Assembly: GCA_964344805.1 (NCBI GenBank)
Contig: CAYFOU010000002.1
Coordinates: 1 to 48,847 of the forward strand
Direction: 5' to 3'
DNA from: an uncultured Piscirickettsiaceae bacterium
Lineage (GTDB): Bacteria; Pseudomonadota; Gammaproteobacteria; GCF-002020875
DNA: 48,847 bases
The notes below the pieces were generated by a model that was not told the DNA's origin, made no database searches, and was given only the letters and a program-made list of their open reading frames with translations. This document shows positions 1,987 to 48,847 of the stretch, piece after piece. A program made the translations under genes and the position numbers. Positions within the stretch are counted from its first letter, which is position 1, and each line of letters opens with the position of its first letter.

Positions 1987-1989
1987 TGG

Positions 1990-2729: not shown

Positions 2730-2733
2730 GGCG

Positions 2734-3927: not shown

Positions 3928-3971
3928 AGCCCGGGTTTCCTGTAGCAGGGGAGCCCGGGCTTTTATTTTTT
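3928..3971 (+). terminator. rho-independent terminator
   Basis: Stem AGCCCGGG (3928-3935) pairs with CCCGGGCT (3954-3961), followed by TTTTATTTTTT. Confidence 0.75.
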
Positions 3972-3982
3972 CGGAGTCTGGA

Positions 3983-33678: not shown

Positions 33679-34742
33679 ATCTGCGGCATATCAGCTCTGT
33701 CTATTCGACCTCTGTCACCGCGATTCATGACTGCAGTTACCCGTCAAACGTCCATGCGGTGATCACAAAACAGAACCGAAAAGTAGCAGCGGGCTACACT
33801 ATCATTCCGCATGCCTTAATTGAAAAATGTCTTCGGCCTTATGCCGAACAGCTGAAGGCGGCTGCCAGTAAGGGGCGCTCTGGATTTATCTTGGCAACAG
33901 GAAATACTCACTGGGACGGGTATCAGGTCAAGCGAAAAAGAGAGCCGTCAAATGTACCCACATTCAGGACTGTCGCTCTATCAACCACCAATATCTATGC
34001 AGGAAGAATCGCTAATTCTCTGGGCTATAACGACTATATCTCAACTGATGCAACTGCCTGTTTGTCAGCATACAGCGCAATGTTCGTGGCGCAGATGCTG
34101 ATTGAGAGTCAGCGTCTGGAACGTGTTCTTGTTGTTGCCGCTGAAGACGCAACCGCACACGACAGTATAGAGTTCTTTGGTGAATACCATGCAGCAGTAA
34201 CGCTAGAAGATGAGCAGAATGGCAAATTGCCAAGCGCCTTTGATGATCGGCACGGGGGGTTCCGTATCGGGCATGGTGCAGGATTTGTGCTGCTGGAGCG
34301 CAGCGGACCAGGCCCGGAAATTGATGTCGCGGTAAATGCTGAGCCATTTGGCAATGCTCTCGGTCAGAGCGAGTCAGGAGACGGGTATGTCACAGCAATG
34401 AGAAGCGTGGAGCTTGATGGCGTGGACCTGATCAAGACCCACGGCACCGGGACTCCAACGAACAATCAGGCTGAGCGATCGGCCATTGAGAGTGTGTTTG
34501 GCGATGATTTTGTAGCAACCAGTTACAAGCCGATGATCGGTCACACAATGGCCCCGAACGGGATCATTGAGCTGGACATCCTCCTGCAGGACATGTCCAG
34601 AGGGGTGGTGTCAGGGATAAAAAATCGCACAGTCGATGATGATCAATTTTTATCTGCAGACAGAGAGATGTCTGTCAGAAAGGCGCTGTGCCTGGGGAGT
34701 GGGATGGGGAACGGATTCGCGGCAATGACTGTAACCGTGTGA
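33675..34742 (+). CDS. beta-ketoacyl-ACP synthase, KAS I/II (FabB/FabF/NodE)-like (355 aa)
   Basis: It carries DATAC(129)LSAYSAM, FDDRHGGFRIGHGAGFVLLE, KTH(256)GTGTPTNNQAE, KPMIGH(290)TMAPNG and C-terminal LGSGMGNGFAAM, in the order and spacing expected for a Cys-His-His condensing enzyme. Its ATG overlaps the ACP TGA. Confidence 0.82.
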   Translation: MNLRHISSVYSTSVTAIHDCSYPSNVHAVITKQNRKVAAGYTIIPHALIEKCLRPYAEQLKAAASKGRSGFILATGNTHWDGYQVKRKREPSNVPTFRTVALSTTNIYAGRIANSLGYNDYISTDATACLSAYSAMFVAQMLIESQRLERVLVVAAEDATAHDSIEFFGEYHAAVTLEDEQNGKLPSAFDDRHGGFRIGHGAGFVLLERSGPGPEIDVAVNAEPFGNALGQSESGDGYVTAMRSVELDGVDLIKTHGTGTPTNNQAERSAIESVFGDDFVATSYKPMIGHTMAPNGIIELDILLQDMSRGVVSGIKNRTVDDDQFLSADREMSVRKALCLGSGMGNGFAAMTVTV

Positions 34743-36874: not shown

Positions 36875-37141
36875 ATGAGCGGATTAATCAATGCGGGGAT
36901 TAAAGGGTACCAAGAGCCTGCGCTAAAAGGGTTCCAGGTTGCTGCTGAAGGTGAGTTTGCAAGAAATGGCACTGCACGTGATATTGATGCACAGGATAAG
37001 GCGCTGCAGATGCAGACGGTCATGACTGGTGCAGGGATGGGAATGTATTACGGCATGAGCGAGGCTGGTGCTGCACTTGGGGGGCCGGCGGGAGCTGCTA
37101 TTGGTGCTGGGATCGGGTTGCTGATTGATGGATTGTTCTGA
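36875..37141 (+). CDS. glycine-zipper membrane protein (88 aa)
   Basis: GAGGGGG RBS. The C-terminal half, GAGMGMYYGMSEAGAALGGPAGAAIGAGIGLLIDGLF, is a GxxxG-rich hydrophobic segment. Confidence 0.6.
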   Translation: MSGLINAGIKGYQEPALKGFQVAAEGEFARNGTARDIDAQDKALQMQTVMTGAGMGMYYGMSEAGAALGGPAGAAIGAGIGLLIDGLF

Positions 37142-38994
37142 TGAAACTACATACTCCTAATTTGATGGGCGGCGTCAAGGACGCTATCGCGCTTGGACAT
37201 GCTTTGTTTGGCGACAAAGAGGGTGAGACCCCGACTTCTGCCAGCACCAACAAGAAGAATGGTGCGGCGGCTCGAAAAGAGGATGCACTTGCGGACAAGT
37301 ACAGTGCGGAAGCAGATTCGACAAGGGCAAAAATGCCTCGGGAGGTGGAGAAGCTTGGTGCCCAGGTGGGCTCTGAGCGGGCGAAAGGCAGAAAGTATGA
37401 TGCTGAGGCAGCTGATGCGGATTCTTCGACCCGGGCGAGAGATGCCAAGTTGCCGCATGAGGTGGAGAAGCTTGGTGCCGAAATAGGTGACAAGCGGGCT
37501 TCTGCCAAGAAAAAAGAGGAAGAGACAAGGAAGCTGGCAATCGAGCGCCGGAAGCAGGCCACAACAAGTGCAATTACCGGATTTTACGATGCAGCGATGT
37601 CTCTCCCGGCCGGGGCCTCCGGCGAGGAGCTGAATCGACTGGTCAGTCACTATCAGGGAGTGATCGACGATGAGGGTGAGATGTTCGATCTTGCGGCCAC
37701 GCTTTCTGGAGATGGCGGTTTCTCAGCCGCCCATCGAATGACAGAGATGATTGATGACATCCGGCGCATGCAGAATGCAGGCACCTATGAGGGAGGCAAT
37801 CGGACATGGCGTGAAGAGGACGGCATGCGAACAGAAAAGCTGCAGGGTTATAAGGATGAGGCGCTGTCCATTCTGCAGAACGACCCTCACATCCAGAGGA
37901 TGATTGATCGCGGCAATGGTGGAAGAAAGGTGCTTTCTGATATTGTCCCGGGAAGTGAGATCTCGGATTCTCTGCCTGATGATCACCTCTACGTCGAGCT
38001 GGAGGTGACCCGGCCAGATGGTTCTGTCTCTTATGAGTTGATGACGATGAATCGGGGCACCAAGGAAGAGGGTGACGACCGAGCAAAACCAGTCGCGCTG
38101 AGAGACATCCAGCAGCATTTCTATGGTCAGCAGAAGATCGCATCAGCACTGGAGCCGTTCCGAAAAGTTCTCCAGAGGAGGCAGCAGGAAGGTTATTACA
38201 GTGCAACGACTGATCCCACGACCCATCAATCTAACCTGAGATTGGGAGAGAACCTCATCACCAAGGGGATCGATACTCGAAATACGCTGGAGGGTGAGGC
38301 AACAGGGCGATATCAGCAGCAAGTCGATGCTCTGATGGAAAGTGGTCTTGGAGCCCTGCGGCAGGCACGGGCGGCAGAGCAGGCCGGCGGTGAGAAGATG
38401 GGCGATGATGACCGTGCAGCTTTGCTTGCGATGGAAAACCAGCTGGATGACCTCGAAGCAGAACATCAGCTGGGCATGTTGTCGGCTCAGAGGCGCGGAG
38501 CCACATACCTTCAGGCAGCGGATAAAGTGCGGGATGGCCAGGCCAAGCCACCAACCGCAAGTTTGGGATCAGCTGCGTTCAGCTCGACTGCTCCAGCAAC
38601 TGCTGCACCTGCTCCAGCGGTTAATACGGTGACGCCGACACAGCGTGCTACCGGTTCATTGTCGTCTATGGTTGCTCAAACCATGGCGAACCACCCAGAT
38701 CAGCCTCCAGTCAGCGAAGCTCCGACCGCTCAGGTAGCTCCAGCAGCGGATGATGAGGGCGCTGATCAGGCCCTTCATGGTCTGCAGGGTATTGTTCACT
38801 CAACTGATGCAGGGCTTAGCGAGGGTGATGCGCGTGCAAAAATCAGGGAGCTGAACCGGATCTATGAGCTGGCCAAGAGCAATCCGGCATTAATGAGCAA
38901 GCTTGTCTCCCGTACCGGGGCGAAAACAGTCGAACAATTCTTCCGTGAATTGATGGCAAGATTGATGAAGCAAGCGGGCATCAGGGGTGGTTGA
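37141..38994 (+). CDS. internal virion/ejection protein (617 aa) with a 39-aa tandem repeat
   Basis: ATGA overlap upstream. The exact 21-nt repeat GAGGTGGAGAAGCTTGGTGCC occurs at 37342 and 37459 (..P(R/H)EVEKLGA..). The protein is charged and helical with an Ala/Pro-rich C-terminal part. Confidence 0.55.
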   Translation: MKLHTPNLMGGVKDAIALGHALFGDKEGETPTSASTNKKNGAAARKEDALADKYSAEADSTRAKMPREVEKLGAQVGSERAKGRKYDAEAADADSSTRARDAKLPHEVEKLGAEIGDKRASAKKKEEETRKLAIERRKQATTSAITGFYDAAMSLPAGASGEELNRLVSHYQGVIDDEGEMFDLAATLSGDGGFSAAHRMTEMIDDIRRMQNAGTYEGGNRTWREEDGMRTEKLQGYKDEALSILQNDPHIQRMIDRGNGGRKVLSDIVPGSEISDSLPDDHLYVELEVTRPDGSVSYELMTMNRGTKEEGDDRAKPVALRDIQQHFYGQQKIASALEPFRKVLQRRQQEGYYSATTDPTTHQSNLRLGENLITKGIDTRNTLEGEATGRYQQQVDALMESGLGALRQARAAEQAGGEKMGDDDRAALLAMENQLDDLEAEHQLGMLSAQRRGATYLQAADKVRDGQAKPPTASLGSAAFSSTAPATAAPAPAVNTVTPTQRATGSLSSMVAQTMANHPDQPPVSEAPTAQVAPAADDEGADQALHGLQGIVHSTDAGLSEGDARAKIRELNRIYELAKSNPALMSKLVSRTGAKTVEQFFRELMARLMKQAGIRGG

Positions 38995-41900
38995 TGTCTG
39001 AATTCAGTCTTGCTGGTGAACTGGGGCAAACCCAGTTGAGTAAAGAAGAGCTGCAGATCATTGAGGCGAACAGACGACGCAAGGAGGAGCGGGCGAGACT
39101 GTTCGAGCAGGAGCAGCGAAATAATCAGGGGCTTCAGCCGCTGCACGCCCTTGTAAGGGGGGCGGTTAGTTCTGTTCAGTCGCTTGGCAGTGGGCTGAAG
39201 TTTGTTGGTGCAGAAGAGACCGGTCAGGCTATTGAAGGCTGGGCTGAAGAGACCAATCAGGATATCTATGATGATATGTCTGATAAGACCCGGGAGGCCA
39301 TCAGCACCCCTTTGACCGTCGAGAATGAGGATGCCCTGCTTGGTGTCTCTCTCAATCCTGATGCCGGCTGGGAAGATTTCTTTATGGGGGCAATGGAGGG
39401 CAGTGGCTCTGCTATTGCTTCGGTTGCCGCCGGTGGCCCTGCCAGTGCCGGTGTAAAAGCCGCGCTGAACAAAGGGTCTCAATGGGCTGCAAAGCGGATG
39501 AGCCGTGAAGCAAAGGCCCTGATTCAGGATGGCGCTGATCCAGGCAAGGCTGCTGAACTGGTGCTCTCCCAGTACAAGGTAGGAAAGTTCTCAGTTCCAG
39601 AGACTGTTGCCGGGGTGACCGGTGCAGCAGTTGGTTTTGGTGGTACCGGCGCCTTGATGGAGGGCGGTGGCGCAGCATCAGAAGTGGAGGATGCAGTCCT
39701 TCAGCTGCCATGGAAAGAGGCGAACCAGATCGAGCGATTTGGTGAGATTTACCACCAGCAGGTAGAGGGGGATGAAAATCTCCGTGATCTTCCGCTTGCA
39801 GAGAAGCATCGGATCGCGCTGAAGCTCTATGCCCGGGAAGAGGCGGATCGGGCATTTGATGACATGGCCGTGAAGGCCGGGATCACCTCTGTGGTCGCTG
39901 GGCCGATGTTGCAAAAAGCCATGCTCGGGAGGTCATCCTCAGTGGGGAGAGGGTTTGCATCAGGTGTTGTGGCTGAATCAGCTGAAGAGGGGTATATCGC
40001 CGGTGAGACCCAGCAGAATATCAATACTGCCACCGGCCGTCCGGAGGATGAAGGGGTCGCCCAGGCGCGTGCCGAAGGTGCAGTGCGCGGTGGTATGGCC
40101 GGTGGTGCGGTCTCGGCTCCCAATGCGCTCATGCGTGGTGCCCAGGGAACCCTGCAGAAGGCAGATATTGAGGCTGCAGATGCGGTTGCTGACGAGAAGC
40201 GCACCAAGCACCTGGATGCAATTAACCAGTCGAGAGAAGCAATGGGGCTCTCCCCGATGCAGTCTCTGGATGAATTTGAGGACCGGTACAGAGTAATCCC
40301 TGGTGCAGACGATGGTGATCCTTTCATCATATATGACACCCATGAGCGGAAGACAGTCGGCCATAAAGAGGATGAAGGGAAGGCTGCACACTTGGCTAAA
40401 TTGAAGAATCTGGAGCACAACATTGCTCGGGGGGAGCCGGTGAGTGACGCTCCCGCTGAAGCGGACCCAGAGACCCCGGCCGAGGCCCCGGTGGATGAAG
40501 AGGTTCCTGCTGAGGATGTTCCTGTCCCTGCAGAGGAGGGTGAAGCGAGCAAAAGTGCTGACAGCTCACGCGAAGCAGTCGAACGTGGAGAGGTGTATAG
40601 CGCATCTTCTCAGGGCGCGTCGCTCGAAGAAGCTCACATAAAGCTTGCCGAGAAGAAGGCCGAAGGTGCCAGGGAAGCATTGCAGCGATTGTTGATGAAA
40701 AATGACCCCGCCGCTGTATCAATCATGCTGCCCAATGGAGAGCGAGTGAGTGGTCAGCAGGCCGGGGACTTGATCGAAAAGCTGGTTCTTGCCGGCAACG
40801 ATGGCTCTGACATCCTAGGCCGTATGCCAGCCATGTTTGAGCAGTCCTCTATTGAGCCCCTGCAGGCTGAAGAGGTTGAATCACCAGCAGCAGAAGAGGT
40901 GCCGGGGCCGGAGGCTCAAGAAGTATCAATCCCAGAGGTAGCTGAGGTTCGCATGTCAGATGCCCGGGGCTGGGGGTTGCCGGAGCTGCAGGCCCAATCA
41001 GAGATGCGCGGTCTGCCAACAACAGATCTCTCTGGCAAGGGGCTGACGATCAATCAGATGCTCGATAATCTGGATGACTTCCAGCGTGGCCGCAAGGTGG
41101 AGGCCGCCGGTGAACTGAGAAACCCTGCGGATAAGATGCTGGCCCACCCGGTCCAGGCGCTGATCAAGAGGATGGGGGGCGTGAACCCGGCCTCTCCGAT
41201 CGGAAAGGAGCTGCGAGCTACCGATGCACATTCATGGATTTTCAATAATGAGGGGCTGGGATCTCTGGACGGTATTGTCCAGAGTGAGCATGAAGAATTC
41301 AGCTTGTTGCCGCCGGCAGAGGATCTGAACGGTTTTGTTGATGAGAGTGTGATTGTTGATCTTGTGCGCGAGGAGCTGTCTGGCAATCCTCTGCGAAGTA
41401 GTCGGCAACAGGAGGCGATAGACAGCTACCAGATGGACCTGTTGGCAGGCAAGCAGGCTGAGGCCGATGCTGAGATGCGGGCACTTGGTGATGGGCATGA
41501 TGAGTTGTCGAATTTTGAGCTAGACAGATTGGACTACGATCAAGACTGGGGGGATTTCCACAGCCAGACAGTTGACCTTTACCAAAGGGCCGCTCAATAT
41601 GATGAAGAGGCAGCAGATCGATTGATGGGTGACCTGGAGGTCAATCCAGTTGATTTGCAAAATCAGCTGCAGGGGATCGTTACCCTATTTGAGGAGCAAA
41701 ACAGTGAGCATGTCGCCGGAAGACCGGAAGATCAGGGAGTCCCAAGTGGCCTGGATGAAGAGGCACAAGGAGAAGAAGTTGGGGCAGTCGAGCCCGCCGC
41801 CGCAGGAGCAGAAGGACAGCAAGAAATAGAGGGGCTTGGCAGCCCGATCGATCAGGCTGCTCATGAAGCGGCCACTTCCCCGCTCAATGATCATCCTGAG

Positions 41901-44900
41901 CCAACTGATGGGCAGAAGAAGGCGGGGAACTACAAACTGGGGCCGGTGAAAGTCCATGGACTTGATATAAGTATCGAGAATCCAAAAGGTTCCGTGCGCC
42001 GTGGGGTAGGCCGTAACGACAAAGAGTGGGCGGTAAAGCTGCAGTCTCACTATGGCTATATCAAAGGGACTGTCGGCAAAGATAAGGATCATGTGGATGT
42101 GTTCCTGGGTGACAATGTAGAAAGCCCTGATCTGCCAGTATTTGTTGTGGATCAGGTTGACCCGGCCAGCAGAAAATTCGATGAGCATAAGGTCATCATG
42201 GGAGCCGCTACCCGGGAAGAGGCTGAGGCGATTTACCTCTCGAATTATGAGGCTGGATGGACCGGTCTGGACGGCATTACCGAAATGCCCCTGGATGAGT
42301 TCAAGGCATGGGTGAAAGACTCGAAGAAAACGCAAAATCGATTGAGTGATGCTGATCCTCAATTTGCGCGTCATTCAGAAGATGGTCAGGAGGGTGGCTA
42401 CAAAAAATTGCCAAGATCCAGGGTTCAGCTGTATGCTAACCAGCTCAATACGTATCTCAGCAAAGAACCAGAGATTGGAGTAAGACACGCTTATGAACAG
42501 GTTGATATGCCTGACACCTCTGTTGGATGGGTCCGGGCGTTTGAAGAAGCTCTTGGACGAAAGGTCGTCTTTATCCAGCCAAACCACCCCAGAGCCAAAG
42601 GCTTCATCAATGGAGCCTACGTCAAAGGAGATATCCTCTACATCTCAGCAGAAGCCGGAGAACCCAACTTCGTCCAAGTAGCTGGGCATGAATTCCTCCA
42701 TTCTCTGCAGAAAAACAATAGCGACCTGCATCGTTATCTAGTCGACAACCTGACAAAATATGTTACGCCTGAGAAGATGCGGGAGCATCATCTCAAGCTG
42801 CGCGAGATCACTGATTACAGTTCTGAAGTAACCAGAAACGAATTGCTTGCCGATTTCGTTGGAGATGCGTTCAACGATACCGAATTCGTGAAGCAACTGG
42901 CCGAGGACAACCCCTCCAAATTCAAATCTCTGCTCAATAGCCTGATCGATTTCTTCTCTGGACTTGCGGACAAGCTGCAGAAGCCTGATGACAGATCTTC
43001 GAAATATTTCCATGATGTGGCCGGAATGCGCGACCATCTCAGGACCGTTATGGATGCCTATGTAAATGGAAAAAGCATTGATGAGGTGACTGAGGATAAG
43101 CCCCTGTACCAAAGGCAGAGTCCCGCACCAGCTCATGGAACTGCAGAGGACCAAGCCGGTAGCAATAGAGTTCTGAGTGGCTTCGGTCAGGGTATCGCTT
43201 CCGGGTTGAAACGTAACGGCCTCACCTGGAGAACAGTCAAGGACACGATCCGCCCGGGGATGCTCTGGGGGATGACCGGTAAACAGATTCTTGAGGTTTA
43301 TGGTGGCAAACTGCGCGGCTCATTGAGGCAGTACACCCATCTTCTTGATCAGATGCGCGAAGAGAAGAGCCGCCTGATCAACCGTGCCGACAGCATCGAG
43401 AAACGGTGGAATCGCCATGTCGATGCGACGGAGATTGGCGAGATTCTGCTGGATGGCACCTTCAACCAGGTCGACCCACTGATGTCATTTGATGACCATG
43501 AGCATATCCGCAAGAAGCGCGAGAAGATCCATGGGCTGACTCGGGATCTGCGCATGATGGATGAGATGTCTCCGGATCAGGCTTATTTGGAGGACCAGCT
43601 GCTTGATCTGGAAACGGAGATGGACGGGCTGAAGGAGACGCACGCGATGCTGCAGGGGCGGTACCAGTCCCTCGACAGCAGCGGCCAGAGAATCTATCAA
43701 GAGGTCCGAGACTCCTATTCAGATGGTCTGCAGGAGTATAAGGAGGCGTTGCTGGAGCGGATTCAGCGCAGTGAAATGGGGGGTAAGGCAAAGGTCGCTG
43801 CTCGCAGCCAGGTTGAACTGATGTTTGCTGAGATGGCGCATCAGGTTGCCTACTTCCCTTTGAAGCGATTCGGCCAGAACATTGTTCTCGCTGAGATCGA
43901 TGGCGAGCGTCACGTCATGAAGTTCGACCGAGTGTCCGATGCCGAGGCAGAAAAGAACCGCATTGTTGATGAGGGCGGGATCGCTGAGCGCCACACAGAA
44001 ATGGACTACCTGAAGAGTGATAACACGGTGACTCCTCAGTTCATGACGGATGTCGAGGCCATGCTCGAAGGAAACGGCTTGATGTCTCAGGATCTTCGAG
44101 ATTCGCTGAACCAGCTTTATCTCAACTACCTGCCGGAAAGCTCTTCCAGAAAGCAGTTCATGCACCGAAATTATGTGCTGGGCTTCTCCCGCGATGCAAT
44201 CAGATCTTTCTCACACTCCATGTTCCATGGTGCTCACCACATGGCCAAGATCAAGTTTGCAGACAAGATGCAGGATGAGCTGAGCCGGATGGAGCAGATG
44301 ACGAATTGGAAAACCTACAAGATATTTGCCTCGGAGCAGGCAAAGCAGGTTGCCGATTACGAGGATGAAAATGCGGCTCTGCGTGCGGCAGCAGAGGCGA
44401 GAAAAACGCATCCTGATTGGGATGTAAGTGTCGATCCAGATGATGCCGGCAACTGGGTGGTGACCATCAAACCGGTCAACAACCGGGAGGAGGTTGGCAG
44501 CTTCAGCACCGAGATTGAGGCCCGGGAAGCGCGGGTCACAATGATGGAGAAAATGCCAGAGTCCGAGTTCACCATTGTGCCCGAGACCAATCCTGATCTG
44601 GCTTCTGACCTCAAGGACTCAGAGTCTCTTGCTCATGTCGTCAATCACATGAAGAAGCGTCATGAGGTGCTGATGAACCCCGCCGGCTCCAGATTGGCGA
44701 ACGCACTGAGTGGATATGGCTTTCTGATGTATCTCGGCTTTACGCCGGCTGCCGCCATGGTGAATATGTCCCAGACTGGTTTGGTGGCCCTGCCGCAGTT
44801 GGCAGCTCGGCATGGCTGGAACAGGGCTCAAAAGGCGCTGCATGGTTATGTGAAGGATATCGCGGTCGGTGGGCATATCGACGGGGTGGATGATATTGAA

Positions 44901-46376
44901 ACTGATGAAATCATGACCCCGGAGAGAAGGGCTGAGCTGAAGCGGATTGTTGATGGCCGTAAGGAGACCCGGGCGATTGACCGGACCCTCCGGACGTTAC
45001 TGACCGGGAAGAAGCTGAACAATCGCCAGCGGGTGGCCCTGATGCACCTGTATGACTCCGGCAACCTGGATCTCAGCCAGAACAGCAATCTGGCTACGGT
45101 GGCCCACAATGACTTGAATGTTCGAATGGGTGGGGTAGTTCCGATGAAGGGGGTCGTGGAGGCTTCCGGGTACCTGTTTCACAATGTTGAGGTATTCAAC
45201 CGCGAGGTCACCGGCTTGGCGGCCTATGATTTGGCTTTCGAAGACGCTATTGAGGAAGGATTGTCCGAGGTAGATGCTCACAATAGGGCAGCTGATGCGG
45301 CGGTTGAGGCCAATGACCGGGGGCATTTCGATTACTCGACCGAAAACCGTGCGATGCTGATGCAGAGCAATGTGGCCCGGGTGGTGACCCAGTTCAAGCA
45401 ATATTCTCAGAATATGACCTTCAGGCTCCTGCGCGACCTTCATCAAACATTCCAGGGAGAGTCGCCGGAGGATAGGGCTGTTGCCCGCCGTCAGCTGATC
45501 GGCACCCTCGGCATGCACTCCATTTTCGCCGGTGCGGCCGGCTTGCCGTTCGTAACGTTGCCGATGCTGTTCAATATAGCGAGCATGACCATGGGAGATG
45601 ACGATGAACCGGTGGACGCCGAGGTGGAGTTCAAGAATTTCCTCGCCGACAATTACGGCCAGAAGACGGCGGAAGTGGTGATGAACGGTGTTCTCCGTGG
45701 AATTCCCGGGATCAGTGCTGCAGATGTCTCCTCCAGAATCAGCCTCAGAGATCTGTGGATCAGAAGCAGTGACTGGGACAAGGGTGACGATGGAGAGATG
45801 GTGGATATCTTCAAGATGGTCATGGGGCCACAGGCGTCACTGTGGATTGAGAACCCGGTGAAGGCAGCCGGTCACTTTGGCCGTGGCGACTATTACAAAG
45901 GGTTTGAGTCGATAACCCCGAAAGTGATGAAAAACTTCATCAAGGCTGTCCGGAACATGAATGAGGGGGAGCGATCGAAGGCCGGCATTGTGCAGTTGGA
46001 TGCTGATCAGTTTGATTGGGTCGACACCACAGTCCAGATGGCCGGGTTTACTCCGACAAGAAAATCCCAGATGTATGAGTATCGGAATGCTGTCTACGGC
46101 AAGGAGCAGGCCCTCAGCCGTCGGCGCACGGACCTGAAGAATATGTGGGTTGAAGGGAAGATGGCCGGTGACAGCAAGATGGTGCTGGAGGCGAAACAGC
46201 AGATTACGGCATTCAACAAGAAGAACCCTGAAATGGCATTGACCGAGCGGTCGCTGAAGCGGTCACTGAAGGCGAAACGGAAGCGTCAGGAGCGCACCAA
46301 GTACGGGGTTCACACCTACAAGAATCGTGAGCATCTGCGCGAGGAGGGGCGTTTCGCCCGGGTTGAGGAGTGGTAA
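38994..46376 (+). CDS. giant multidomain (polyvalent-type) virion protein (2460 aa)
   Basis: TGATG overlap upstream. It has a Gly/Ala-rich hydrophobic N-terminus and a pyrophosphatase-like segment at about 41925-42320 (ISIENPKGS.., HYGYIKGTVGKDKDHVDVFLG, VFVVDQVD..DEHKVIMG). It also has HEFLH at 42687-42701, PLKRFG at 43857-43874 and hydrophobic helices near the C-terminus. Confidence 0.7.
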   Translation: MSEFSLAGELGQTQLSKEELQIIEANRRRKEERARLFEQEQRNNQGLQPLHALVRGAVSSVQSLGSGLKFVGAEETGQAIEGWAEETNQDIYDDMSDKTREAISTPLTVENEDALLGVSLNPDAGWEDFFMGAMEGSGSAIASVAAGGPASAGVKAALNKGSQWAAKRMSREAKALIQDGADPGKAAELVLSQYKVGKFSVPETVAGVTGAAVGFGGTGALMEGGGAASEVEDAVLQLPWKEANQIERFGEIYHQQVEGDENLRDLPLAEKHRIALKLYAREEADRAFDDMAVKAGITSVVAGPMLQKAMLGRSSSVGRGFASGVVAESAEEGYIAGETQQNINTATGRPEDEGVAQARAEGAVRGGMAGGAVSAPNALMRGAQGTLQKADIEAADAVADEKRTKHLDAINQSREAMGLSPMQSLDEFEDRYRVIPGADDGDPFIIYDTHERKTVGHKEDEGKAAHLAKLKNLEHNIARGEPVSDAPAEADPETPAEAPVDEEVPAEDVPVPAEEGEASKSADSSREAVERGEVYSASSQGASLEEAHIKLAEKKAEGAREALQRLLMKNDPAAVSIMLPNGERVSGQQAGDLIEKLVLAGNDGSDILGRMPAMFEQSSIEPLQAEEVESPAAEEVPGPEAQEVSIPEVAEVRMSDARGWGLPELQAQSEMRGLPTTDLSGKGLTINQMLDNLDDFQRGRKVEAAGELRNPADKMLAHPVQALIKRMGGVNPASPIGKELRATDAHSWIFNNEGLGSLDGIVQSEHEEFSLLPPAEDLNGFVDESVIVDLVREELSGNPLRSSRQQEAIDSYQMDLLAGKQAEADAEMRALGDGHDELSNFELDRLDYDQDWGDFHSQTVDLYQRAAQYDEEAADRLMGDLEVNPVDLQNQLQGIVTLFEEQNSEHVAGRPEDQGVPSGLDEEAQGEEVGAVEPAAAGAEGQQEIEGLGSPIDQAAHEAATSPLNDHPEPTDGQKKAGNYKLGPVKVHGLDISIENPKGSVRRGVGRNDKEWAVKLQSHYGYIKGTVGKDKDHVDVFLGDNVESPDLPVFVVDQVDPASRKFDEHKVIMGAATREEAEAIYLSNYEAGWTGLDGITEMPLDEFKAWVKDSKKTQNRLSDADPQFARHSEDGQEGGYKKLPRSRVQLYANQLNTYLSKEPEIGVRHAYEQVDMPDTSVGWVRAFEEALGRKVVFIQPNHPRAKGFINGAYVKGDILYISAEAGEPNFVQVAGHEFLHSLQKNNSDLHRYLVDNLTKYVTPEKMREHHLKLREITDYSSEVTRNELLADFVGDAFNDTEFVKQLAEDNPSKFKSLLNSLIDFFSGLADKLQKPDDRSSKYFHDVAGMRDHLRTVMDAYVNGKSIDEVTEDKPLYQRQSPAPAHGTAEDQAGSNRVLSGFGQGIASGLKRNGLTWRTVKDTIRPGMLWGMTGKQILEVYGGKLRGSLRQYTHLLDQMREEKSRLINRADSIEKRWNRHVDATEIGEILLDGTFNQVDPLMSFDDHEHIRKKREKIHGLTRDLRMMDEMSPDQAYLEDQLLDLETEMDGLKETHAMLQGRYQSLDSSGQRIYQEVRDSYSDGLQEYKEALLERIQRSEMGGKAKVAARSQVELMFAEMAHQVAYFPLKRFGQNIVLAEIDGERHVMKFDRVSDAEAEKNRIVDEGGIAERHTEMDYLKSDNTVTPQFMTDVEAMLEGNGLMSQDLRDSLNQLYLNYLPESSSRKQFMHRNYVLGFSRDAIRSFSHSMFHGAHHMAKIKFADKMQDELSRMEQMTNWKTYKIFASEQAKQVADYEDENAALRAAAEARKTHPDWDVSVDPDDAGNWVVTIKPVNNREEVGSFSTEIEAREARVTMMEKMPESEFTIVPETNPDLASDLKDSESLAHVVNHMKKRHEVLMNPAGSRLANALSGYGFLMYLGFTPAAAMVNMSQTGLVALPQLAARHGWNRAQKALHGYVKDIAVGGHIDGVDDIETDEIMTPERRAELKRIVDGRKETRAIDRTLRTLLTGKKLNNRQRVALMHLYDSGNLDLSQNSNLATVAHNDLNVRMGGVVPMKGVVEASGYLFHNVEVFNREVTGLAAYDLAFEDAIEEGLSEVDAHNRAADAAVEANDRGHFDYSTENRAMLMQSNVARVVTQFKQYSQNMTFRLLRDLHQTFQGESPEDRAVARRQLIGTLGMHSIFAGAAGLPFVTLPMLFNIASMTMGDDDEPVDAEVEFKNFLADNYGQKTAEVVMNGVLRGIPGISAADVSSRISLRDLWIRSSDWDKGDDGEMVDIFKMVMGPQASLWIENPVKAAGHFGRGDYYKGFESITPKVMKNFIKAVRNMNEGERSKAGIVQLDADQFDWVDTTVQMAGFTPTRKSQMYEYRNAVYGKEQALSRRRTDLKNMWVEGKMAGDSKMVLEAKQQITAFNKKNPEMALTERSLKRSLKAKRKRQERTKYGVHTYKNREHLREEGRFARVEEW

Positions 46377-46482
46377 TGCTATAATGGCGCTGCAGTCATA
46401 TGAACGGAGCCACTTATTGGTGTGATTGCGCCGCCTGATTTGTCAGGTCTCCAGCGGGTCTGGAGATATTGAAGAGTTCCGG

Positions 46483-46509
46483 AAGCCCGCGTTGAGCGGG
46501 CTTTTTTTA
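46483..46509. terminator. rho-independent terminator at the convergence of the + late operon and the minus-strand integrase cassette
   Basis: AGCCCGC-GTTGA-GCGGGCT hairpin followed by T7. A second hairpin, TCTCCAG-CGGGT-CTGGAGA, lies just upstream (about 46449-46467). Confidence 0.75.
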
Positions 46510-46527
46510 TGGCGGCATATTGTGGTG

Positions 46528-46785
46528 TTAGGCAGACAAGCATTCTGAACATTTTTCAATAATCAATCCGCAGGTTCTCTTGACGCGAAGTCTGCCTTTC
46601 CGGAATACGGAACAGCGATAGTGGCTCATCTCTCCGGGAGGCCCTAGTCCATCCTCCCAGCCAACAGTCTGAGATGATTCTTCAAGCTGTTCGCATGGTT
46701 CAACCCTTTTCACATCCTTACCAAGGCATACACAGTATTTTCCATCAGGTGCGGTCACATGTAAGGTTATTGTAAGTTTAGGCAT
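46528..46785 (-). CDS. hypothetical Cys-rich protein (85 aa) downstream of the integrase
   Basis: GGAGG lies 9 nt upstream of the ATG on the minus strand. The protein has seven Cys, including CVC and CSEC. Confidence 0.5.
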   Translation of the reverse strand: MPKLTITLHVTAPDGKYCVCLGKDVKRVEPCEQLEESSQTVGWEDGLGPPGEMSHYRCSVFRKGRLRVKRTCGLIIEKCSECLSA

Positions 46786-46815
46786 AACAACATTCCTCCA
46801 AAAAGGTCGTGCCGG

Positions 46816-47832
46816 TTAATATGGGTGTTGGAGCAACGGCATTTGATCTGGCGATGCTGCCTGGACAATATTTCCCGACGTTTTGAGTAGATGCCTACTG
46901 GACAAGTGGCTGTAGCGGAGCACCATTTCATAGGTCTTCCATCCGCCCAGATCCATCAGCTCCCGTAATGTTGTTTCGGTTTGTACGTGCCAGCTTGCCC
47001 AGGTGTGACGCAGGTCATGCCATTTGAAGTTTGTAATGCCGGCTTTCTTCAGAGATTTTGCCCAGGTTCGTGAGTCAATCCCGGGGATTTTGTTGCCTTT
47101 GCGGTTGGTGAAAACATATTCCCCAGACCTTTTATTGGCTCTACTGTAGAGGATGTTCATGGCAATTTCGTTGAGGGGGACGGCGATATCGTCCTCGCCT
47201 TTTGCCTGGTCACCATAGATCCACGCAGTTTTTCTGAGAAGATCGATCTGTGACCACTGCAGCCCCAGTACGTTGCTTTGCCGAAGGCCCACTTGCAGAG
47301 AGAATTCGGCAGGCTCCTGGAGGTAGTCCGGCAGTGCGGCTATCAGTCGGTTTGCCTCTTCCCGGGTTATCCATCGAATTCTCTTGTTGGGCTCCTTCTC
47401 GATGTGGATGTAGGGGACAGAGTGAGTCCAGCCCCAATTCTTGTTCGCAGTCTTGAGGAAGCTCTTGAGGGTGGTCTTGTAGCGGTTCGCAGTGGAAATG
47501 GTGAATGGTAGCTCTATGTCGCTGATCACCTCAGTGGTGACATCGCTGAGCTTGAGGTGACCGAGATATTCCTCCCAGAAGTCCATGTGCCTGGTGATGT
47601 CAGCAATACTTTTCTTGGGGGCCTTCTCGCGCAGGAATTTGGCTTTGCCTTCGCTCCACTTTCTGGGCTTTTTCAGCCCTTGGTCCTGCATCCATAGCTC
47701 ACGCTGGAGCTTGTCATGGACCAGCTGGGCTTCAGTTTTTTTCTTGGTTTTTGTGCTGCGCCGGATGGTCTCGCCGTTGGCGCTCAGCAGCACCCACCAG
47801 TATGAGCTGTCGGGCCTTTTATATAGAGACAT
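46816..47832 (-). CDS. int: tyrosine recombinase / phage integrase (338 aa)
   Basis: Integrase-type N-terminus MSLYKRPDSSYWWVLL..GETIRRSTKTKKKTEAQ and catalytic region ..HDLRHTWASWHVQ....LGGWKTYEMVLRYSHL. GAGGAAAG RBS before ATG 47832; the ORF-track start 47889 is less likely. Confidence 0.9.
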   Translation of the reverse strand: MSLYKRPDSSYWWVLLSANGETIRRSTKTKKKTEAQLVHDKLQRELWMQDQGLKKPRKWSEGKAKFLREKAPKKSIADITRHMDFWEEYLGHLKLSDVTTEVISDIELPFTISTANRYKTTLKSFLKTANKNWGWTHSVPYIHIEKEPNKRIRWITREEANRLIAALPDYLQEPAEFSLQVGLRQSNVLGLQWSQIDLLRKTAWIYGDQAKGEDDIAVPLNEIAMNILYSRANKRSGEYVFTNRKGNKIPGIDSRTWAKSLKKAGITNFKWHDLRHTWASWHVQTETTLRELMDLGGWKTYEMVLRYSHLSSRHLLKTSGNIVQAASPDQMPLLQHPY

Positions 47833-47962
47833 ATTGCTTTCCTCGCGTAGAAAACATCGCGGTTTTAACAGTAACGCATGACGGCCCACCGCGAAACGGG
47901 GATTCGGCCGCTAAACCTAGTCATGCGCAAATCGATTATATGGTGAAGAAGGAGTGTGTGCC

Positions 47963-48523
47963 ATGGGGAGTTTTGATGGAAATAGCAAGAAATTGGCCGA
48001 GAAGAGGGACGATGTAGCGAGAGTCGATCCTGGCCGGTTTGATCGTGCGCTCGATTTCTATTTGGAGAATGAAGGCGGCGATGTCGATCATGAGAGTGAT
48101 CCCGGGGGCGTAACGAGCCGAGGGATCTCAGCTGAATACAATCCGGAGCTGGAAGATGTGACCCGACTGTCTGATGCAGAGGTGAGAGAGCACTACCGGA
48201 AGAAATACTGGAGGCGAGTTTTCGGGCGCCTCAAGAGCGACGATGTTGCGATCAAGATCTTCGATATATCGACCAATGCTGGCTTCGATGATGCGAGCAT
48301 GGTGCTGCAGCGGGCCATCAACGACTGCGGTGGAGAGGTCATGGTTGACGGGGTGATGGGTAGCAGAACGGTGGCAGGGGCCAACTCTGTGGACCAGCTG
48401 CGGCTGCTCCGAGCGGTATGCCAGCGGCAGTGGCTCATGTACCAGGAGAAAATGGAGCAGGCACCGGAGAAGATTGCTTTTTACAATGGCTGGATGAGGC
48501 GAGCGAAGAGGGTGCCAGCATGA
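47963..48523 (+). CDS. endolysin, GH108-type muramidase with C-terminal peptidoglycan-binding-like region (186 aa)
   Basis: ..LENEGGDVDHESDPGGVTSRGIS.. matches the GH108 EGG...DPGG-T--GI signature. The C-terminal ..FYNGWMRRAKR resembles PG_binding_3. AAGGAG lies upstream. Confidence 0.8.
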   Translation: MGSFDGNSKKLAEKRDDVARVDPGRFDRALDFYLENEGGDVDHESDPGGVTSRGISAEYNPELEDVTRLSDAEVREHYRKKYWRRVFGRLKSDDVAIKIFDISTNAGFDDASMVLQRAINDCGGEVMVDGVMGSRTVAGANSVDQLRLLRAVCQRQWLMYQEKMEQAPEKIAFYNGWMRRAKRVPA

Positions 48524-48542
48524 GTGAACTGTAAAAAACCCT

Positions 48543-48788
48543 GTGGATTTTGTTGTGTCTGATAACAAGGCATATTTTGAGGTTCGGTGCAGGAAGGGGT
48601 GCGGCAGATTGGCCTATAGCCGAATTGGCTTGAATGAGGCTATTTTGTTATGGAACGAGGGCGTCACAATGGAGAGGCCAAAAATCAAGAAGCGAGGGGC
48701 GAAGGATGTAATTCTTGATGAGGAGCTTAATAAGGTTCTTGAGCAGGCAGGGGCTGATATGGTTGCTGAAGGGAGCTGGATTGAATAG
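48543..48788 (+). CDS. hypothetical protein (81 aa), weak Lar-like (restriction-alleviation) half-motif
   Basis: ..YFEVRCRKGCGRLAYSRIGLNEAILLWNEG resembles the C-terminal V-C--CG....EAI--WN part of Lar-family proteins. The N-terminal CxxC is absent, the start is GTG and there is no clear RBS. Confidence 0.3.
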   Translation: MDFVVSDNKAYFEVRCRKGCGRLAYSRIGLNEAILLWNEGVTMERPKIKKRGAKDVILDEELNKVLEQAGADMVAEGSWIE

Positions 48789-48847
48789 CCGCGCCTAGGA
48801 GCCTGTCGGGTTTAGTGCACCGATGAACACATCAAGCCACTTTGCCC

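What the first reader, a model, noticed from the sequence alone, without database searches (positions are those of the whole stretch)
38994..46376. 2460-aa giant virion protein combining a pyrophosphatase-like module, an HExxH site and a PLxRFG region
Seen in the sequence, in order along the protein:
- A Gly/Ala-rich hydrophobic N-terminal part of about 450 aa.
- Acidic Pro/Glu linkers.
- A segment at about 41925-42320 reading ISIENPKGSVRRG ... SHYGYIKGTVGKDKDHVDVFLG ... VFVVDQVDPASRKFDEHKVIMG. This tracks the family I inorganic pyrophosphatase core (compare E. coli [20 protein letters not shown]).
- HEFLH at 42687-42701.
- PLKRFG at 43857-43874.
- Long helical regions and two hydrophobic helix clusters near the C-terminus.

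Established: huge polyvalent proteins of phages and conjugative elements concatenate enzymatic effector modules and are delivered with the DNA. PLxRFG is a named signature of one such family of giant proteins.

Inference: this is an injected multi-effector or ejectosome protein. A pyrophosphatase-fold module in this context is unusual. It could act on nucleotide-derived defence signals or on nucleotide pools rather than on PPi.
Basis: partly seen in the sequence, partly recalled or inferred. Interest (0 to 1): 0.7.

Follow-up and report, generated by a model that had tools for sequence, protein, structure and literature searches.

The report
Giant phage ejection protein carrying enzymes
This 2460-residue gene at the end of a short-tailed prophage's virion operon is a divergent member of an already described class of giant internal-virion "polyvalent" proteins, in which a conserved ejection tail is fused to enzyme modules, so its pyrophosphatase-like part is typical of the class, not unusual.

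Summary
One ORF (38994-46376, +, 2460 aa) contains every listed feature at the stated coordinates.

The modules, in order along the protein:
- **Pyrophosphatase-like segment:** it matches Pfam PF18823 "InPase" (E=3e-53), a family defined from phage polyvalent proteins. Its model has the family I pyrophosphatase fold, and the metal-binding acidic residues are kept.
- **HEFLH site:** it lies in a domain where H1232, E1233, H1236 and E1283 are invariant in 29 diverse relatives. That is a gluzincin signature. The same domain occurs in solved phiKMV-type ejection proteins.
- **PLKRFG motif:** it opens the about 850-aa all-helical NCBIfam NF032893 "PLxRFG" tail (E=1e-167). No solved structure resembles this tail.

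Phage proteins that match the tail include F116 p60 and Vibrio douglas 12A4 gp62. Hardies et al. 2016 placed both in the extended T7 gp16 (IVP-D) internal virion protein family.

The protein and 81 of its 111 relatives contain no cysteine.

The "injected ejectosome/multi-effector" reading is therefore supported by homology and gene context. The claim that the pyrophosphatase module is unusual is not: Iyer et al. 2017 described it and proposed the same hypothesis.

What is new is modest:
- The sequence is very divergent.
- The N-terminal about 940 aa holds conserved modules that match no Pfam family.
- The zincin domain links this class to proteins of solved ejectosomes.

Verdict: new member of a known kind, interest about 0.3.

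The parts
38994..46376 (+). Giant gene, 2460 aa, no cysteine. It is the last gene of the virion operon.
   Evidence: ORF. Start context TGATG plus a Shine-Dalgarno-like run. Cysteine count 0, against 0.66% in the other window proteins.
39075..40148 (+). N-terminal Gly/Ala-rich conserved module (aa 28-385). It matches no Pfam family.
   Evidence: 60% identical, without gaps, to MAG protein P0113. A few further relatives were found in 1.84 billion representatives; two of them also carry InPase or ddrB-ParB. No Pfam hit.
40443..40541 (+). Acidic Pro/Glu linker 1 (about aa 484-516).
   Evidence: Sequence; composition.
40638..40853 (+). Small conserved module (aa 549-620).
   Evidence: 43% identical to P0113 over aa 549-693.
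40854..40949 (+). Acidic Pro/Glu linker 2 (aa 621-652).
41079..41537 (+). Conserved module B (aa about 696-848), shared with shorter phage proteins.
   Evidence: More than 20 hits with E from 3e-14 to 8e-4. No Pfam family among those scanned. Several of the proteins that carry it match PHROGs 342 or 6651, annotated as internal virion proteins.
41706..41888 (+). Acidic, Gly-rich linker 3 (about aa 905-965).
41910..42317 (+). InPase domain (aa 973-1108): a family I pyrophosphatase fold with E995, Y1020, D1030, D1032, D1035, D1053, D1063/E1064 and K1066 retained.
   Evidence: PF18823 E=3e-53. AF2 pLDDT above 90 over this domain. The Foldseek PDB top 50 are all family I PPases, mostly at probability 0.9-1.0. 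Alignment to E. coli PPase, with that sequence verified. Conservation counts.
42513..43070 (+). Zincin-like (gluzincin-type) domain, aa about 1174-1359. HEFLH is at 42687-42701 and the third putative ligand E1283 at 42840-42842.
   Evidence: H1232, E1233, H1236 and E1283 are invariant in 29 sequences. Profile against PDB: 9sfn_G 4e-18, 8vb2_A 2e-4, 23sg_S 9e-4, anthrax lethal factor about 0.01. Pfam ATLF in 4 members, best 5e-7. In the AF2 model a beta-sheet precedes the HExxH helix, and a later helix carries E1283.
43242..43790 (+). LPD39 (aa 1417-1599), the helical segment just upstream of the PLxRFG motif.
   Evidence: PF18858 E=1e-16. In P0009, LPD39 ends exactly at PLARFG.
43791..46328 (+). 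PLxRFG tail (NF032893 'tail-700'). It is nearly all alpha-helical. The PLKRFG motif is at 43857-43874.
   Evidence: NF032893 E=1.1e-167, 559.6 bits against a cut-off of 100, in two stretches. AF2 pLDDT 77, pTM 0.69. No significant PDB fold match, best E=0.3. 68 BFVD matches, many to C-terminal parts of giant phage proteins. 72 phage records match by tblastn.
44391..44591 (+). Lineage-specific insert inside the tail (aa about 1800-1866).
   Evidence: Only 2 of 111 homologues cover aa 1801-1850. The NF032893 match is split in two. Weak sub-threshold SPOR and T4_Y13H hits.
44706..44762 (+). Conserved hydrophobic segment 1 (aa 1905-1923).
   Evidence: Kyte-Doolittle 1.24. Conserved block 'SPAxALVNLxQ' in the family consensus.
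45495..45611 (+). Conserved hydrophobic segment 2 (aa 2168-2200), followed by the acidic motif GDDDEP (aa 2201-2206).
   Evidence: Kyte-Doolittle 1.69, the only 19-mer at or above 1.4. Family consensus 'AGxxGxP...FGDDDEPxDxE'.
46194..46373 (+). Strongly basic C-terminal end (aa 2401-2460, 30% Lys+Arg).
   Evidence: Composition; sequence.
37141..38994 (+). Upstream 617-aa gene, translationally coupled, cysteine-free, no known family. It is a candidate partner virion protein.

Best explanation
The gene encodes an internal virion (ejection) protein of a temperate short-tailed phage. It has two parts:
- **Constant C-terminal part, about 1250 aa:** a zincin-like HExxH...E domain, then LPD39, then the PLxRFG helical tail with two conserved hydrophobic segments and a basic end.
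- **Variable N-terminal part, about 1100 aa:** a Gly/Ala-rich module, a module of about 150 aa shared with shorter phage proteins (several of which match PHROGs annotated as internal virion proteins), and a pyrophosphatase-fold InPase. Flexible acidic linkers separate these modules.

Proposed mechanism:
1. A few copies are packaged inside the capsid.
2. At infection they leave through the portal and tail ahead of the DNA, largely unfolded.
3. The helical tail helps build or anchor the conduit across the envelope. The hydrophobic segments insert into the membrane.
4. The N-terminal modules reach the periplasm or cytoplasm.
5. The zincin domain either cuts the polyprotein into working pieces or cleaves a host envelope target.
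6. The InPase hydrolyses a phosphoanhydride substrate early in infection. This could be PPi or a nucleotide-derived molecule.

Shown here: the domain identities, the conserved catalytic residues, the gene position and the homologies. Inferred: packaging, ejection, membrane insertion, processing and the substrate.
For: **Gene context**
- It is the last gene of a + strand operon: terminase, portal, major capsid, tail fibres, internal virion protein.
- An integrase and a muramidase follow it.
- F116 has the same layout, with p59/p60 followed by holin and lysis genes.
- The portal is closest to marine podophages.

**Tail**
- NF032893 E=1e-167.
- It matches 72 phage records, mostly about 55-66 kb. 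These include F116 p60, H66 'structural protein', PBC5 orf23 and douglas 12A4 gp62.
- PMC4819975 Table 2 lists IVP-D (T7 gp16) homologues in all four of these phages and names F116 p60 and douglas 12A4 gp62 by accession. It reports HMM-HMM E=8e-19 between the joined sets.

**Zincin domain**
- Four invariant residues.
- Profile hits to the solved ejection proteins 9sfn_G (4e-18) and PhiM1 gp48 (2e-4), and to anthrax lethal factor.

**InPase**
- Evidence: - The same domain is fused to the Pa193 portal.

**No cysteine**
- 0 in 2460 aa, where about 16 would be expected. 82 of the 112 proteins (this one and 111 relatives) have none.
- This fits passage through an oxidising periplasm in an unfolded state (my inference).

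**Indirect evidence from related giant proteins found in virions by mass spectrometry**
- JC1 gp69 (PMC9144972) shares the HExxH domain with family member P0011.
- phi24B gp47 is proposed as an ejection protein (bioRxiv 10.64898/2026.04.10.717836).
Against: - There is no direct evidence that this protein, or any PLxRFG-tail protein I could trace in the held literature, has been seen in particles. The exceptions are the GenBank label 'structural protein' on H66 and Hardies' statement about it.
- I could not reproduce similarity of the tail to a T7/phiKMV-type IVP-D beyond the zincin domain. hmmsearch found only the HExxH domain. hhalign of the tail against the phiKMV gp37 C-terminal part gave P=0.04, against 0.16-0.77 for shuffles. 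Foldseek against PDB, which holds 8vb2 and 9sfn, found nothing.
- JC1 gp69, the homologue with proteomic support, lacks a detectable PLxRFG tail.
- No lysozyme or transglycosylase domain is present, unlike many IVP-D proteins.
- Only one segment reaches classical transmembrane hydrophobicity.
Confidence: 0.75

Rival explanations
1. It is a DarB-like antirestriction protein, as PHROG 10089 and many GenBank records label its relatives. On this reading it protects the incoming DNA from type I restriction by methylation or helicase action.
For: PHROG 10089 'DarB-like antirestriction' matches at E=4e-157. Many tblastn hits fall under features with that name.
Against: - The PHROG match covers only the C-terminal tail: profile positions 4116-4639 of 4647.
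- Pfam finds no methyltransferase or helicase domain in this protein at E up to 0.1.
- Iyer et al. describe the DarB archetype as an LPD36-MTase-SF2 helicase unit.
- The label therefore travels with the shared tail, not with the DarB catalytic module.
Confidence: 0.05
2. It is mainly a structural conduit or scaffold protein, and its enzyme-like modules are relics. The InPase and HExxH domains would serve as folded spacers or interaction surfaces, without catalysis.
For: - Several E. coli pyrophosphatase active-site positions, as I recall them (E31, R43, Y51), have no aligned counterpart.
- Iyer et al. note that the beta-hairpin is missing in this clade.
- The InPase on the Pa193 portal is disordered in the virion map.
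- The tail is a long helical protein with no enzyme-like fold match.
Against: - The metal-binding carboxylates and K1066 are conserved in about 90% or more of 33-36 aligned sequences. D1053 is less strict: 26 D and 7 N of 36.
- H, E, H and E of the zincin site are invariant in 29 sequences that share only 9-24% identity with this protein.
- That pattern is what selection on catalysis produces.
Confidence: 0.1
3. The HExxH domain is a cell-wall-degrading enzyme, not a self-processing protease. It would act in the periplasm on peptidoglycan peptide links to let the conduit reach the inner membrane.
For: - The homologous region of PhiM1 gp48 (aa 268-528) was called 'endolysin/exotransglycosidase-like' (PMC11440229).
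- phiKMV gp37 is annotated 'internal virion protein with endolysin domain'.
- The phi24B authors propose that a metallopeptidase domain of gp47 degrades peptidoglycan.
- This protein has no other muralytic domain.
Against: - The profile's non-phage matches are protein-cleaving zincins: anthrax lethal factor, M48, IrrE and SprT-like. None is a peptidoglycan peptidase family.
- Iyer et al. argue that the metallopeptidases of polyvalent proteins process the polyprotein.
- Neither role has been tested for any member.
Confidence: 0.3
4. It is not a virion protein at all. It would be a cell-made toxin or effector of the prophage, for example a secreted polymorphic toxin that merely sits next to the late genes.
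For: - No proteomic data exist for this element.
- Acidic linkers and modular enzyme domains also occur in polymorphic toxins.
Against: - It is translationally coupled to the preceding late gene and lies on the same strand as the whole virion module.
- No signal peptide-like N terminus is evident in the sequence.
- All tail homologues with genome context that I examined lie in phage genomes.
- Two modules are shared with solved or PHROG-annotated internal virion proteins.
Confidence: 0.03

Closest known systems
PLxRFG-tail giant proteins of F116-group podophages. Members include Pseudomonas F116 p59/p60, H66 gp60, Vibrio douglas 12A4 gp62, Sinorhizobium PBC5 orf23, Erwinia PEp14, Klebsiella LASTA/SopranoGao and Serratia Parlo. 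Hardies et al. 2016 treat the group as IVP-D (T7 gp16) homologues.
   Same: - They share the C-terminal tail: 24-32% identity over about 90% of aa 1867-2460.
- Many relatives also carry LPD39, and an HExxH domain upstream of the tail is nearly invariant in the family alignment.
- The gene sits at the end of the virion module, before the lysis genes.
- Hosts are podophages, with matching records mostly of about 55-66 kb.
   Different: - The cargo differs. Many relatives carry methyltransferase, helicase, ART, LPD1/3/5, MuF-C or transglycosylase modules.
- This protein has InPase plus N-terminal modules that match no Pfam family, and no MTase, helicase or muralytic domain.
- Overall identity is low, and no relative covers more than 43% of the query.
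Phage polyvalent proteins with the InPase domain (Iyer, Burroughs, Anand, de Souza and Aravind 2017; Pfam PF18823).
   Same: - The InPase clade is the same, with a full-length model match.
- It has the phage-type context, the zincin metallopeptidase theme and LPD39.
- The functional hypotheses are the same ones: nucleotide signal or PPi clearance.
   Different: - The HExxH domain here does not match Pfam's MPTase-PolyVal model, or any other Pfam model, above threshold.
- The N-terminal 940 aa matches no Pfam family, including the Pfam LPD models.
phiKMV-type tetrameric ejection proteins: phiKMV gp37, PDB 9sfn_G, and PhiM1 gp48 (PDB 8vb2).
   Same: - They share the HExxH...E domain: profile E=4e-18 and 2e-4, and hmmsearch 1.4e-11 to gp37.
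- They are large, mostly helical proteins, and the solved ones are packaged inside the capsid.
   Different: - No detectable similarity exists outside that domain.
- Those proteins are about 1250-1340 aa and carry no InPase.
Bcep22-like 'DarB-like' giant virion proteins (Burkholderia JC1 gp69, Bcep22 gp75).
   Same: - It is a giant cysteine-free protein (JC1 gp69: 0 Cys in 4515 aa).
- It is the last gene of the virion module.
- It has an HExxH domain related to that of family member P0011.
- It was found in virions by mass spectrometry.
   Different: - It has no PLxRFG tail by NF032893, by the family HMM or by BLASTP.
- It carries MTase and helicase modules that are absent here.
Family I soluble inorganic pyrophosphatase (E. 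coli Ppa).
   Same: - The fold is the same (Foldseek, mostly probability 0.9-1.0).
- E20, Y55, D65, D67, D70, D97 and K104 are identical in the alignment. D102 is replaced by Glu, and K29 aligns with a conserved Arg.
   Different: - Identity is 25% in the pairwise alignment and 11-23% in the Foldseek alignments.
- A stretch of about 11 residues containing R43 is missing, and E31 and Y51 are not conserved.
- Here it is a domain inside a 2460-aa protein, not a free-standing cytoplasmic protein.

Membership tests
Pfam PF18823 InPase (polyvalent-protein pyrophosphatase clade) | Full-length match to the family model above the gathering score | tested here: met
   179.7 bits against a cut-off of 26.8, model positions 2-135 of 135.
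Pfam PF18823 InPase (polyvalent-protein pyrophosphatase clade) | Family I pyrophosphatase (OB-type) fold | tested here: met
   AF2 pLDDT above 90 over the domain. The Foldseek PDB top 50 are all family I PPases, E from 7e-4.
Pfam PF18823 InPase (polyvalent-protein pyrophosphatase clade) | Conserved acidic metal ligands | tested here: met
   D1030, D1032, D1035, D1053 and D1063/E1064 align with E. coli D65, D67, D70, D97 and D102. They are conserved in the family; D1053 is D in 26 of 36 and N in 7.
Pfam PF18823 InPase (polyvalent-protein pyrophosphatase clade) | Lacks the beta-hairpin between strands 1 and 2 that solved PPases have (Iyer 2017) | tested here: inconclusive
   The pairwise alignment shows a gap of about 11 residues opposite E. 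coli 36-46, which is consistent. I did not superpose structures.
Pfam PF18823 InPase (polyvalent-protein pyrophosphatase clade) | Hydrolysis of PPi or another phosphoanhydride | not testable with these tools
   This needs an enzyme assay.
NCBIfam NF032893 PLxRFG domain ('tail-700') | Model match above the curated cut-off, plus the PLxRFG motif | tested here: met
   559.6 bits against a cut-off of 100. PLKRFG at aa 1622.
Phage polyvalent protein (Iyer et al. 2017) | Giant polypeptide that joins several unrelated enzymatic or LPD domains, including a zincin metallopeptidase | tested here: met
   InPase and LPD39. An HExxH...E domain with invariant residues and lethal-factor-like profile matches.
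Phage polyvalent protein (Iyer et al. 2017) | Encoded with virion or packaging genes | tested here: met
   Terminase, portal, capsid, tail fibres and internal virion protein lie upstream on the same strand.
Phage polyvalent protein (Iyer et al. 2017) | Packaged in the particle and delivered to the host | not testable with these tools
   This needs virion proteomics and infection experiments.
Extended T7 gp16 / IVP-D internal virion protein family (Hardies et al. 2016) | Sequence homology to listed members of the F116 subgroup | tested here: met
   tblastn of the tail to douglas 12A4 VPAG_00062 (3e-62), PBC5 orf23 (6e-65) and F116 p60 (1e-7). IVP-D homologues in these phages are listed in Table 2 of PMC4819975, with douglas 12A4 gp62 and F116 p60 matched by accession.
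Extended T7 gp16 / IVP-D internal virion protein family (Hardies et al. 2016) | Detectable homology of the helical body to T7- or phiKMV-type IVP-D | tested here: inconclusive
   Only the HExxH domain matches phiKMV gp37. Tail against the gp37 C-terminal part by hhalign gave P=0.04. Foldseek against PDB found nothing. Hardies' link used joined multi-family HMMs that I could not rebuild.
Extended T7 gp16 / IVP-D internal virion protein family (Hardies et al. 2016) | Extensively alpha-helical large protein | tested here: met
   The AF2 model of aa 1420-2460 is almost entirely helical.
P1 DarB-type antirestriction protein | N6-adenine methyltransferase fused to an SF2 helicase (with LPD36) | tested here: not met
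   No MTase, helicase or LPD36 hit in Pfam at E up to 0.1. The PHROG 'DarB-like' match covers only the tail.
Gluzincin-type zinc metallopeptidase | HExxH on a helix plus a downstream Glu as third ligand, conserved across the family | tested here: met
   H1232, E1233, H1236 and E1283 are invariant in 29 sequences. Both elements lie in predicted helices that follow a small beta-sheet.
Gluzincin-type zinc metallopeptidase | Structural match to a solved zincin; zinc binding; proteolysis | tested here: inconclusive
   Only sequence-profile matches, at E about 0.01, to lethal factor, snapalysin and M48. The Foldseek list was saturated by PPase hits. Zinc binding and activity cannot be tested here.

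The most novel reading that the evidence does not exclude
The InPase module is an injected counter-defence enzyme. Its metal core is intact, but the PPi-binding periphery of classical pyrophosphatases is changed: R43, E31 and Y51 have no counterpart. It might therefore cleave a pyrophosphate-containing immune or alarm molecule at the moment of DNA entry, and not bulk PPi. Candidates are ADP-ribose-derived signals, (p)ppGpp/(p)ppApp-type alarmones, or modified NTPs made by defence systems. The neighbouring zincin domain would release it from the ejection tail.
Probability: 0.12. Interest if true: 0.75.

Novelty: new member of a known kind. Interest (0 to 1): 0.3.

Why it matters
If the explanation is right, this is one more example of podophages using their ejection protein as a carrier for enzymes that act in the first seconds of infection. 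Here the cargo is a simple set (InPase plus zincin), which could make the InPase function easier to study than in relatives of 3000-4500 aa with many domains.

Three points may be useful beyond this locus:
- **The HExxH...E domain is shared.** It is nearly invariant just upstream of LPD39 and the PLxRFG tail. It also occurs in solved phiKMV-type ejection proteins, where the papers I read call the region endolysin-like and do not mention a metallopeptidase motif.
- **Most of the family has no cysteine.** This is a simple, testable signature of proteins that cross the periplasm unfolded.
- **The PLxRFG tail has no solved structural relative.** It matches 72 phage records and many metagenomic proteins.

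None of this changes the classification. The class, the InPase domain and its hypothesised roles were published in 2016-2017.

Tried and rejected
- **Single-sequence PDB searches.** The whole protein found only the Pa193 portal C-terminal region, which has no density in that structure. The C-terminal 1319 aa found nothing.
- **Foldseek of the aa 1420-2460 model against PDB.** Nothing was significant. Low-probability hits to colicin Ia and IpaB were not used as evidence.
- **Testing tail homology to phiKMV gp37.** hmmsearch and hhalign found only the HExxH domain. A low-stringency hhalign alignment spanning 840 columns was discarded because that domain drives it.
- **Using JC1 gp69 as a proteomically confirmed homologue.** I rejected this for the tail: NF032893, the family HMM and BLASTP are all negative. 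It is kept only as an indirect link through the HExxH domain of P0011.
- **N-terminal region.** phmmer of aa 1-480 against the 111 relatives found nothing. Earlier weak BLASTP hits were treated as compositional.
- **Close relatives and host.** Scans of genome contigs and viral contigs with the whole protein found none, so the host stays unidentified. The closest N-terminal relative comes from a gammaproteobacterial MAG.
- **Genome ends.** No tRNA and no terminal repeat were found, so the ends and the att site are unresolved.
- **Literature.** One search returned only irrelevant virology papers. No paper showed proteomics of a PLxRFG-tail protein.
- **HExxH in module-B proteins.** I looked for HExxH in the short module-B-containing proteins P0120-P0129 and found none. 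I therefore make no claim that the two modules co-occur there.


Full report
**1. The observation**

The window has a single ORF from 38991 (TTG) or 38994 (ATG) to 46376 on the + strand, 2460 aa from the ATG. The ATG overlaps the stop of the preceding 617-aa gene (TGATG) and follows a GGGGTGG run, so the two genes look translationally coupled.

- HEFLH is the only HExxH, at aa 1232 (nt 42687-42701). PLKRFG is the only PLxRFG, at aa 1622 (nt 43857-43874).
- The pyrophosphatase-like sequence lies at aa 992-1070.
- Gly+Ala reaches 27-37% over aa 101-400.
- Acidic, proline-rich linkers lie near aa 484-516, 621-652 and 905-965.
- The two most hydrophobic C-terminal stretches are aa 1905-1923 and aa 2177-2195.

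**2. Surroundings**

The window (51.8% G+C) is the late region of a temperate phage.
- The + strand encodes a large terminase, portal, major capsid protein, structural proteins, tail fibres and an internal virion protein (PHROG 511). Several genes of unknown function, the 617-aa gene and the giant gene follow.
- Downstream lie a tyrosine integrase on the - strand and a muramidase-like gene.
- The portal is about 30% identical to portals of marine podophages, namely pelagiphages HTVC033P/115P and roseophages CRP.
- No tRNA, terminal repeat or close relative in the genome or viral contig collections was found.

**3. The pyrophosphatase-like module**

- Pfam PF18823 "InPase" matches aa 973-1108 over its whole length (E=3e-53).
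- An AlphaFold2 model of aa 940-1420, built on a 36-sequence alignment, has pLDDT above 90 across this domain. Its 50 best Foldseek matches in the PDB are all family I inorganic pyrophosphatases, mostly at probability 0.9-1.0.
- I aligned it to E. coli pyrophosphatase.
  - E20, Y55, D65, D67, D70, D97 and K104 are identical.
  - D102 is replaced by Glu, next to an Asp. K29 aligns with a conserved Arg.
  - About 11 residues that include R43 are absent. E31 and Y51 are not kept.
- Most of the retained residues are conserved in about 90% or more of the aligned InPase domains. D1053 is less strict: 26 D and 7 N of 36.

The metal core is therefore intact, while the periphery differs from classical enzymes.

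This is not an unusual find. Iyer et al. 2017 describe exactly this clade. They say it is restricted to phage-type polyvalent proteins and portal fusions and lacks a beta-hairpin. They propose that it either targets nucleotides made in response to infection or clears PPi (PMC5512222). About half of the 111 relatives I retrieved carry PF18823. The only solved-structure sequence match is the Pa193 portal C-terminal region, where that part has no density (PMC11456595).

**4. The HExxH site**

- No Pfam family covers this region in this protein or in four relatives.
- In an alignment of 29 diverse homologous segments (9-24% identity to this protein), H1232, E1233, H1236 and E1283 are the only invariant columns. 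That is HExxH plus a Glu 46 residues downstream (NELLAD), which is a gluzincin pattern.
- In the model a small beta-sheet precedes the HExxH helix, and E1283 lies on a later helix.
- A profile of this alignment finds the following in the PDB:
  - a 1337-aa "internal virion protein", 9sfn_G (E=4e-18);
  - the PhiM1 tetrameric ejection protein gp48, 8vb2_A (E=2e-4);
  - gp10, 23sg_S (E=9e-4);
  - then anthrax lethal factor, snapalysin, an M48 peptidase, IrrE and thermolysin at E from 0.01 to 1.
- Four members match Pfam ATLF (best 5e-7) and four match SprT-like.
- phiKMV gp37, also 1337 aa, has HEAVH at aa 423 and matches the family HMM only in this domain.
- The PhiM1 paper calls the corresponding region "endolysin/exotransglycosidase-like". 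Neither it nor the Ar-KM preprint mentions a metallopeptidase motif.
- In the wider family alignment, the HExxH...E domain is nearly invariant just upstream of LPD39.

**5. The PLxRFG region**

- NCBIfam NF032893 ("tail-700", PLxRFG domain-containing protein) matches at E=1.1e-167, 559.6 bits against a cut-off of 100. The match is in two stretches, the larger covering aa 1867-2445.
- Pfam LPD39 (aa 1417-1599) is the helical segment just before the motif.
- Only 2 of 111 relatives cover aa about 1800-1850, so this stretch is a local insert.
- The model of aa 1420-2460 (pLDDT 77, pTM 0.69) is almost entirely helical.
- It has no significant match in the PDB, best E=0.3.
- It has 68 matches in BFVD. 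Many are C-terminal pieces of giant phage proteins, and their descriptions point to very different N-terminal domains.
- The family consensus conserves both hydrophobic segments and a GDDDEP motif after the second one.

**6. Link to ejection proteins**

- tblastn of aa 1867-2460 finds 72 phage records, mostly about 55-66 kb. They include F116, H66 (annotated "structural protein"), PBC5, douglas 12A4, PEp14, Parlo, LASTA/SopranoGao, Skulduggery and Atu_ph08.
- The matched genes are F116 p60 (YP_164324) and douglas 12A4 VPAG_00062 (YP_007877487).
- Hardies et al. 2016 list both, together with homologues in H66 and PBC5, as F116-group homologues of T7 internal virion protein D (gp16). They report HMM-HMM E=8e-19 between joined sets. 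They note that IVP-D proteins host lysozyme domains and cytoplasm-destined domains (PMC4819975).
- I could not reproduce the distant link to T7/phiKMV-type proteins outside the zincin domain.
- In F116 the giant gene pair is followed directly by holin and lysis genes. In this window the giant gene likewise closes the virion module.

**7. The N-terminal 940 residues**

No Pfam family matches here, but the region is not junk.
- aa 28-385 is 60% identical, without gaps, to a partial protein from a gammaproteobacterial MAG. aa 549-693 is 43% identical to the same protein, while the linkers differ.
- A full HMMER scan of 1.84 billion representatives found 33 other proteins.
  - A few share the first module. 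Two of them also carry InPase or ddrB-ParB.
  - More than 20 share a module of about 150 aa (aa about 696-848). Several of these match PHROGs annotated as internal virion proteins.

**8. Cysteine**

- The protein has no cysteine. The other 22 window proteins that I counted average 0.66%, so about 16 would be expected.
- 82 of the 112 proteins (this one and its 111 relatives) have none. The upstream 617-aa protein has none, and neither does JC1 gp69, with 4515 aa.
- I read this as a mark of proteins that cross the oxidising periplasm unfolded. This is an inference and was not tested.

**9. Mechanism and rivals**

The best-supported reading is an IVP-D-type ejection protein with cargo. It would be packaged in the head and expelled through the tail before the DNA. 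The helical tail with its hydrophobic segments would contribute to the envelope-spanning conduit. The N-terminal modules would be delivered to the host. The zincin would either process the polyprotein (Iyer's proposal) or attack an envelope target (the phi24B and PhiM1 authors' view). The InPase would hydrolyse a phosphoanhydride.

Proteomic support exists only for related giants. JC1 gp69 gave 51 unique peptides. phi24B gp47 is proposed as an ejection protein. JC1 gp69 lacks the PLxRFG tail.

The "DarB-like antirestriction" label fails its membership test: no methyltransferase or helicase is present, and the PHROG match covers only the tail.

**10. Verdict**

This is a new, very divergent member of a known kind.

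The points of some interest are:
- the zincin domain shared with solved ejectosome proteins;
- the absence of cysteine across most of the family;
- conserved N-terminal modules that match no Pfam family;
- a widespread tail fold with no solved relative.

Noticed in passing
window 4529-7297 (+): The large terminase is 922 aa, unusually long. It has a LAGLIDADG_3 hit at aa 395-438 and a PHROG match of aa 350-423 to a family annotated as an anaerobic ribonucleotide reductase large subunit. The terminase nuclease domain is at aa 732-890. This looks like an intein or homing-endonuclease insertion in TerL.
   Followed up: partly
window 33675-34742 (+): A 355-aa beta-ketoacyl synthase-like protein (PF00109, PF02801, ACP_syn_III) is encoded among the virion genes. 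It is an odd metabolic-type gene for a structural operon.
   Followed up: no
L001:6567-10580 (phiKMV gp37); PDB 9sfn_G and 8vb2_A: phiKMV-type tetrameric ejection proteins carry an HExxH...E zincin-like domain: HEAVH at gp37 aa 423, and the same motif is visible in the 9sfn_G and 8vb2_A alignments. The PhiM1 paper calls this region endolysin/exotransglycosidase-like. Neither paper I read mentions a metallopeptidase motif.
   Followed up: partly
window 38994-46376 and 37141-38994; homologues P0002-P0112; L002:2124-15671: There are no cysteines in the giant protein, in the upstream 617-aa protein, in 81 of 111 relatives, or in JC1 gp69 (4515 aa). The other window proteins average 0.66% Cys.
   Followed up: partly
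L002:2124-15671 (Burkholderia phage JC1 gp69): The Bcep22-like 'DarB-like' giant virion protein shares the MTase/helicase and HExxH parts with PLxRFG-family member P0011. Its last 900 aa or so show no detectable PLxRFG tail. Giant virion proteins therefore seem to come with at least two different C-terminal tails.
   Followed up: partly
window 44391-44591 (aa about 1800-1866): This is a short insert inside the PLxRFG tail, predicted as a beta-hairpin plus a short helical segment. It has weak sub-threshold hits to SPOR and T4 Y13H models, and only 2 of 111 relatives cover it.
   Followed up: no
window 18434-22411 (+): A 1325-aa protein in the tail region matches no PHROG or Pfam family.
   Followed up: no
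window 1-4500 and 46400-48847: The stretch holds virion genes plus an integrase and a muramidase-like gene. No replication or regulation genes turned up among the ORFs I scanned, and ORFs in 1-4500 were not scanned. No tRNA and no terminal repeat were found. It is probably an incomplete phage genome, or the prophage ends are not in view.
   Followed up: partly
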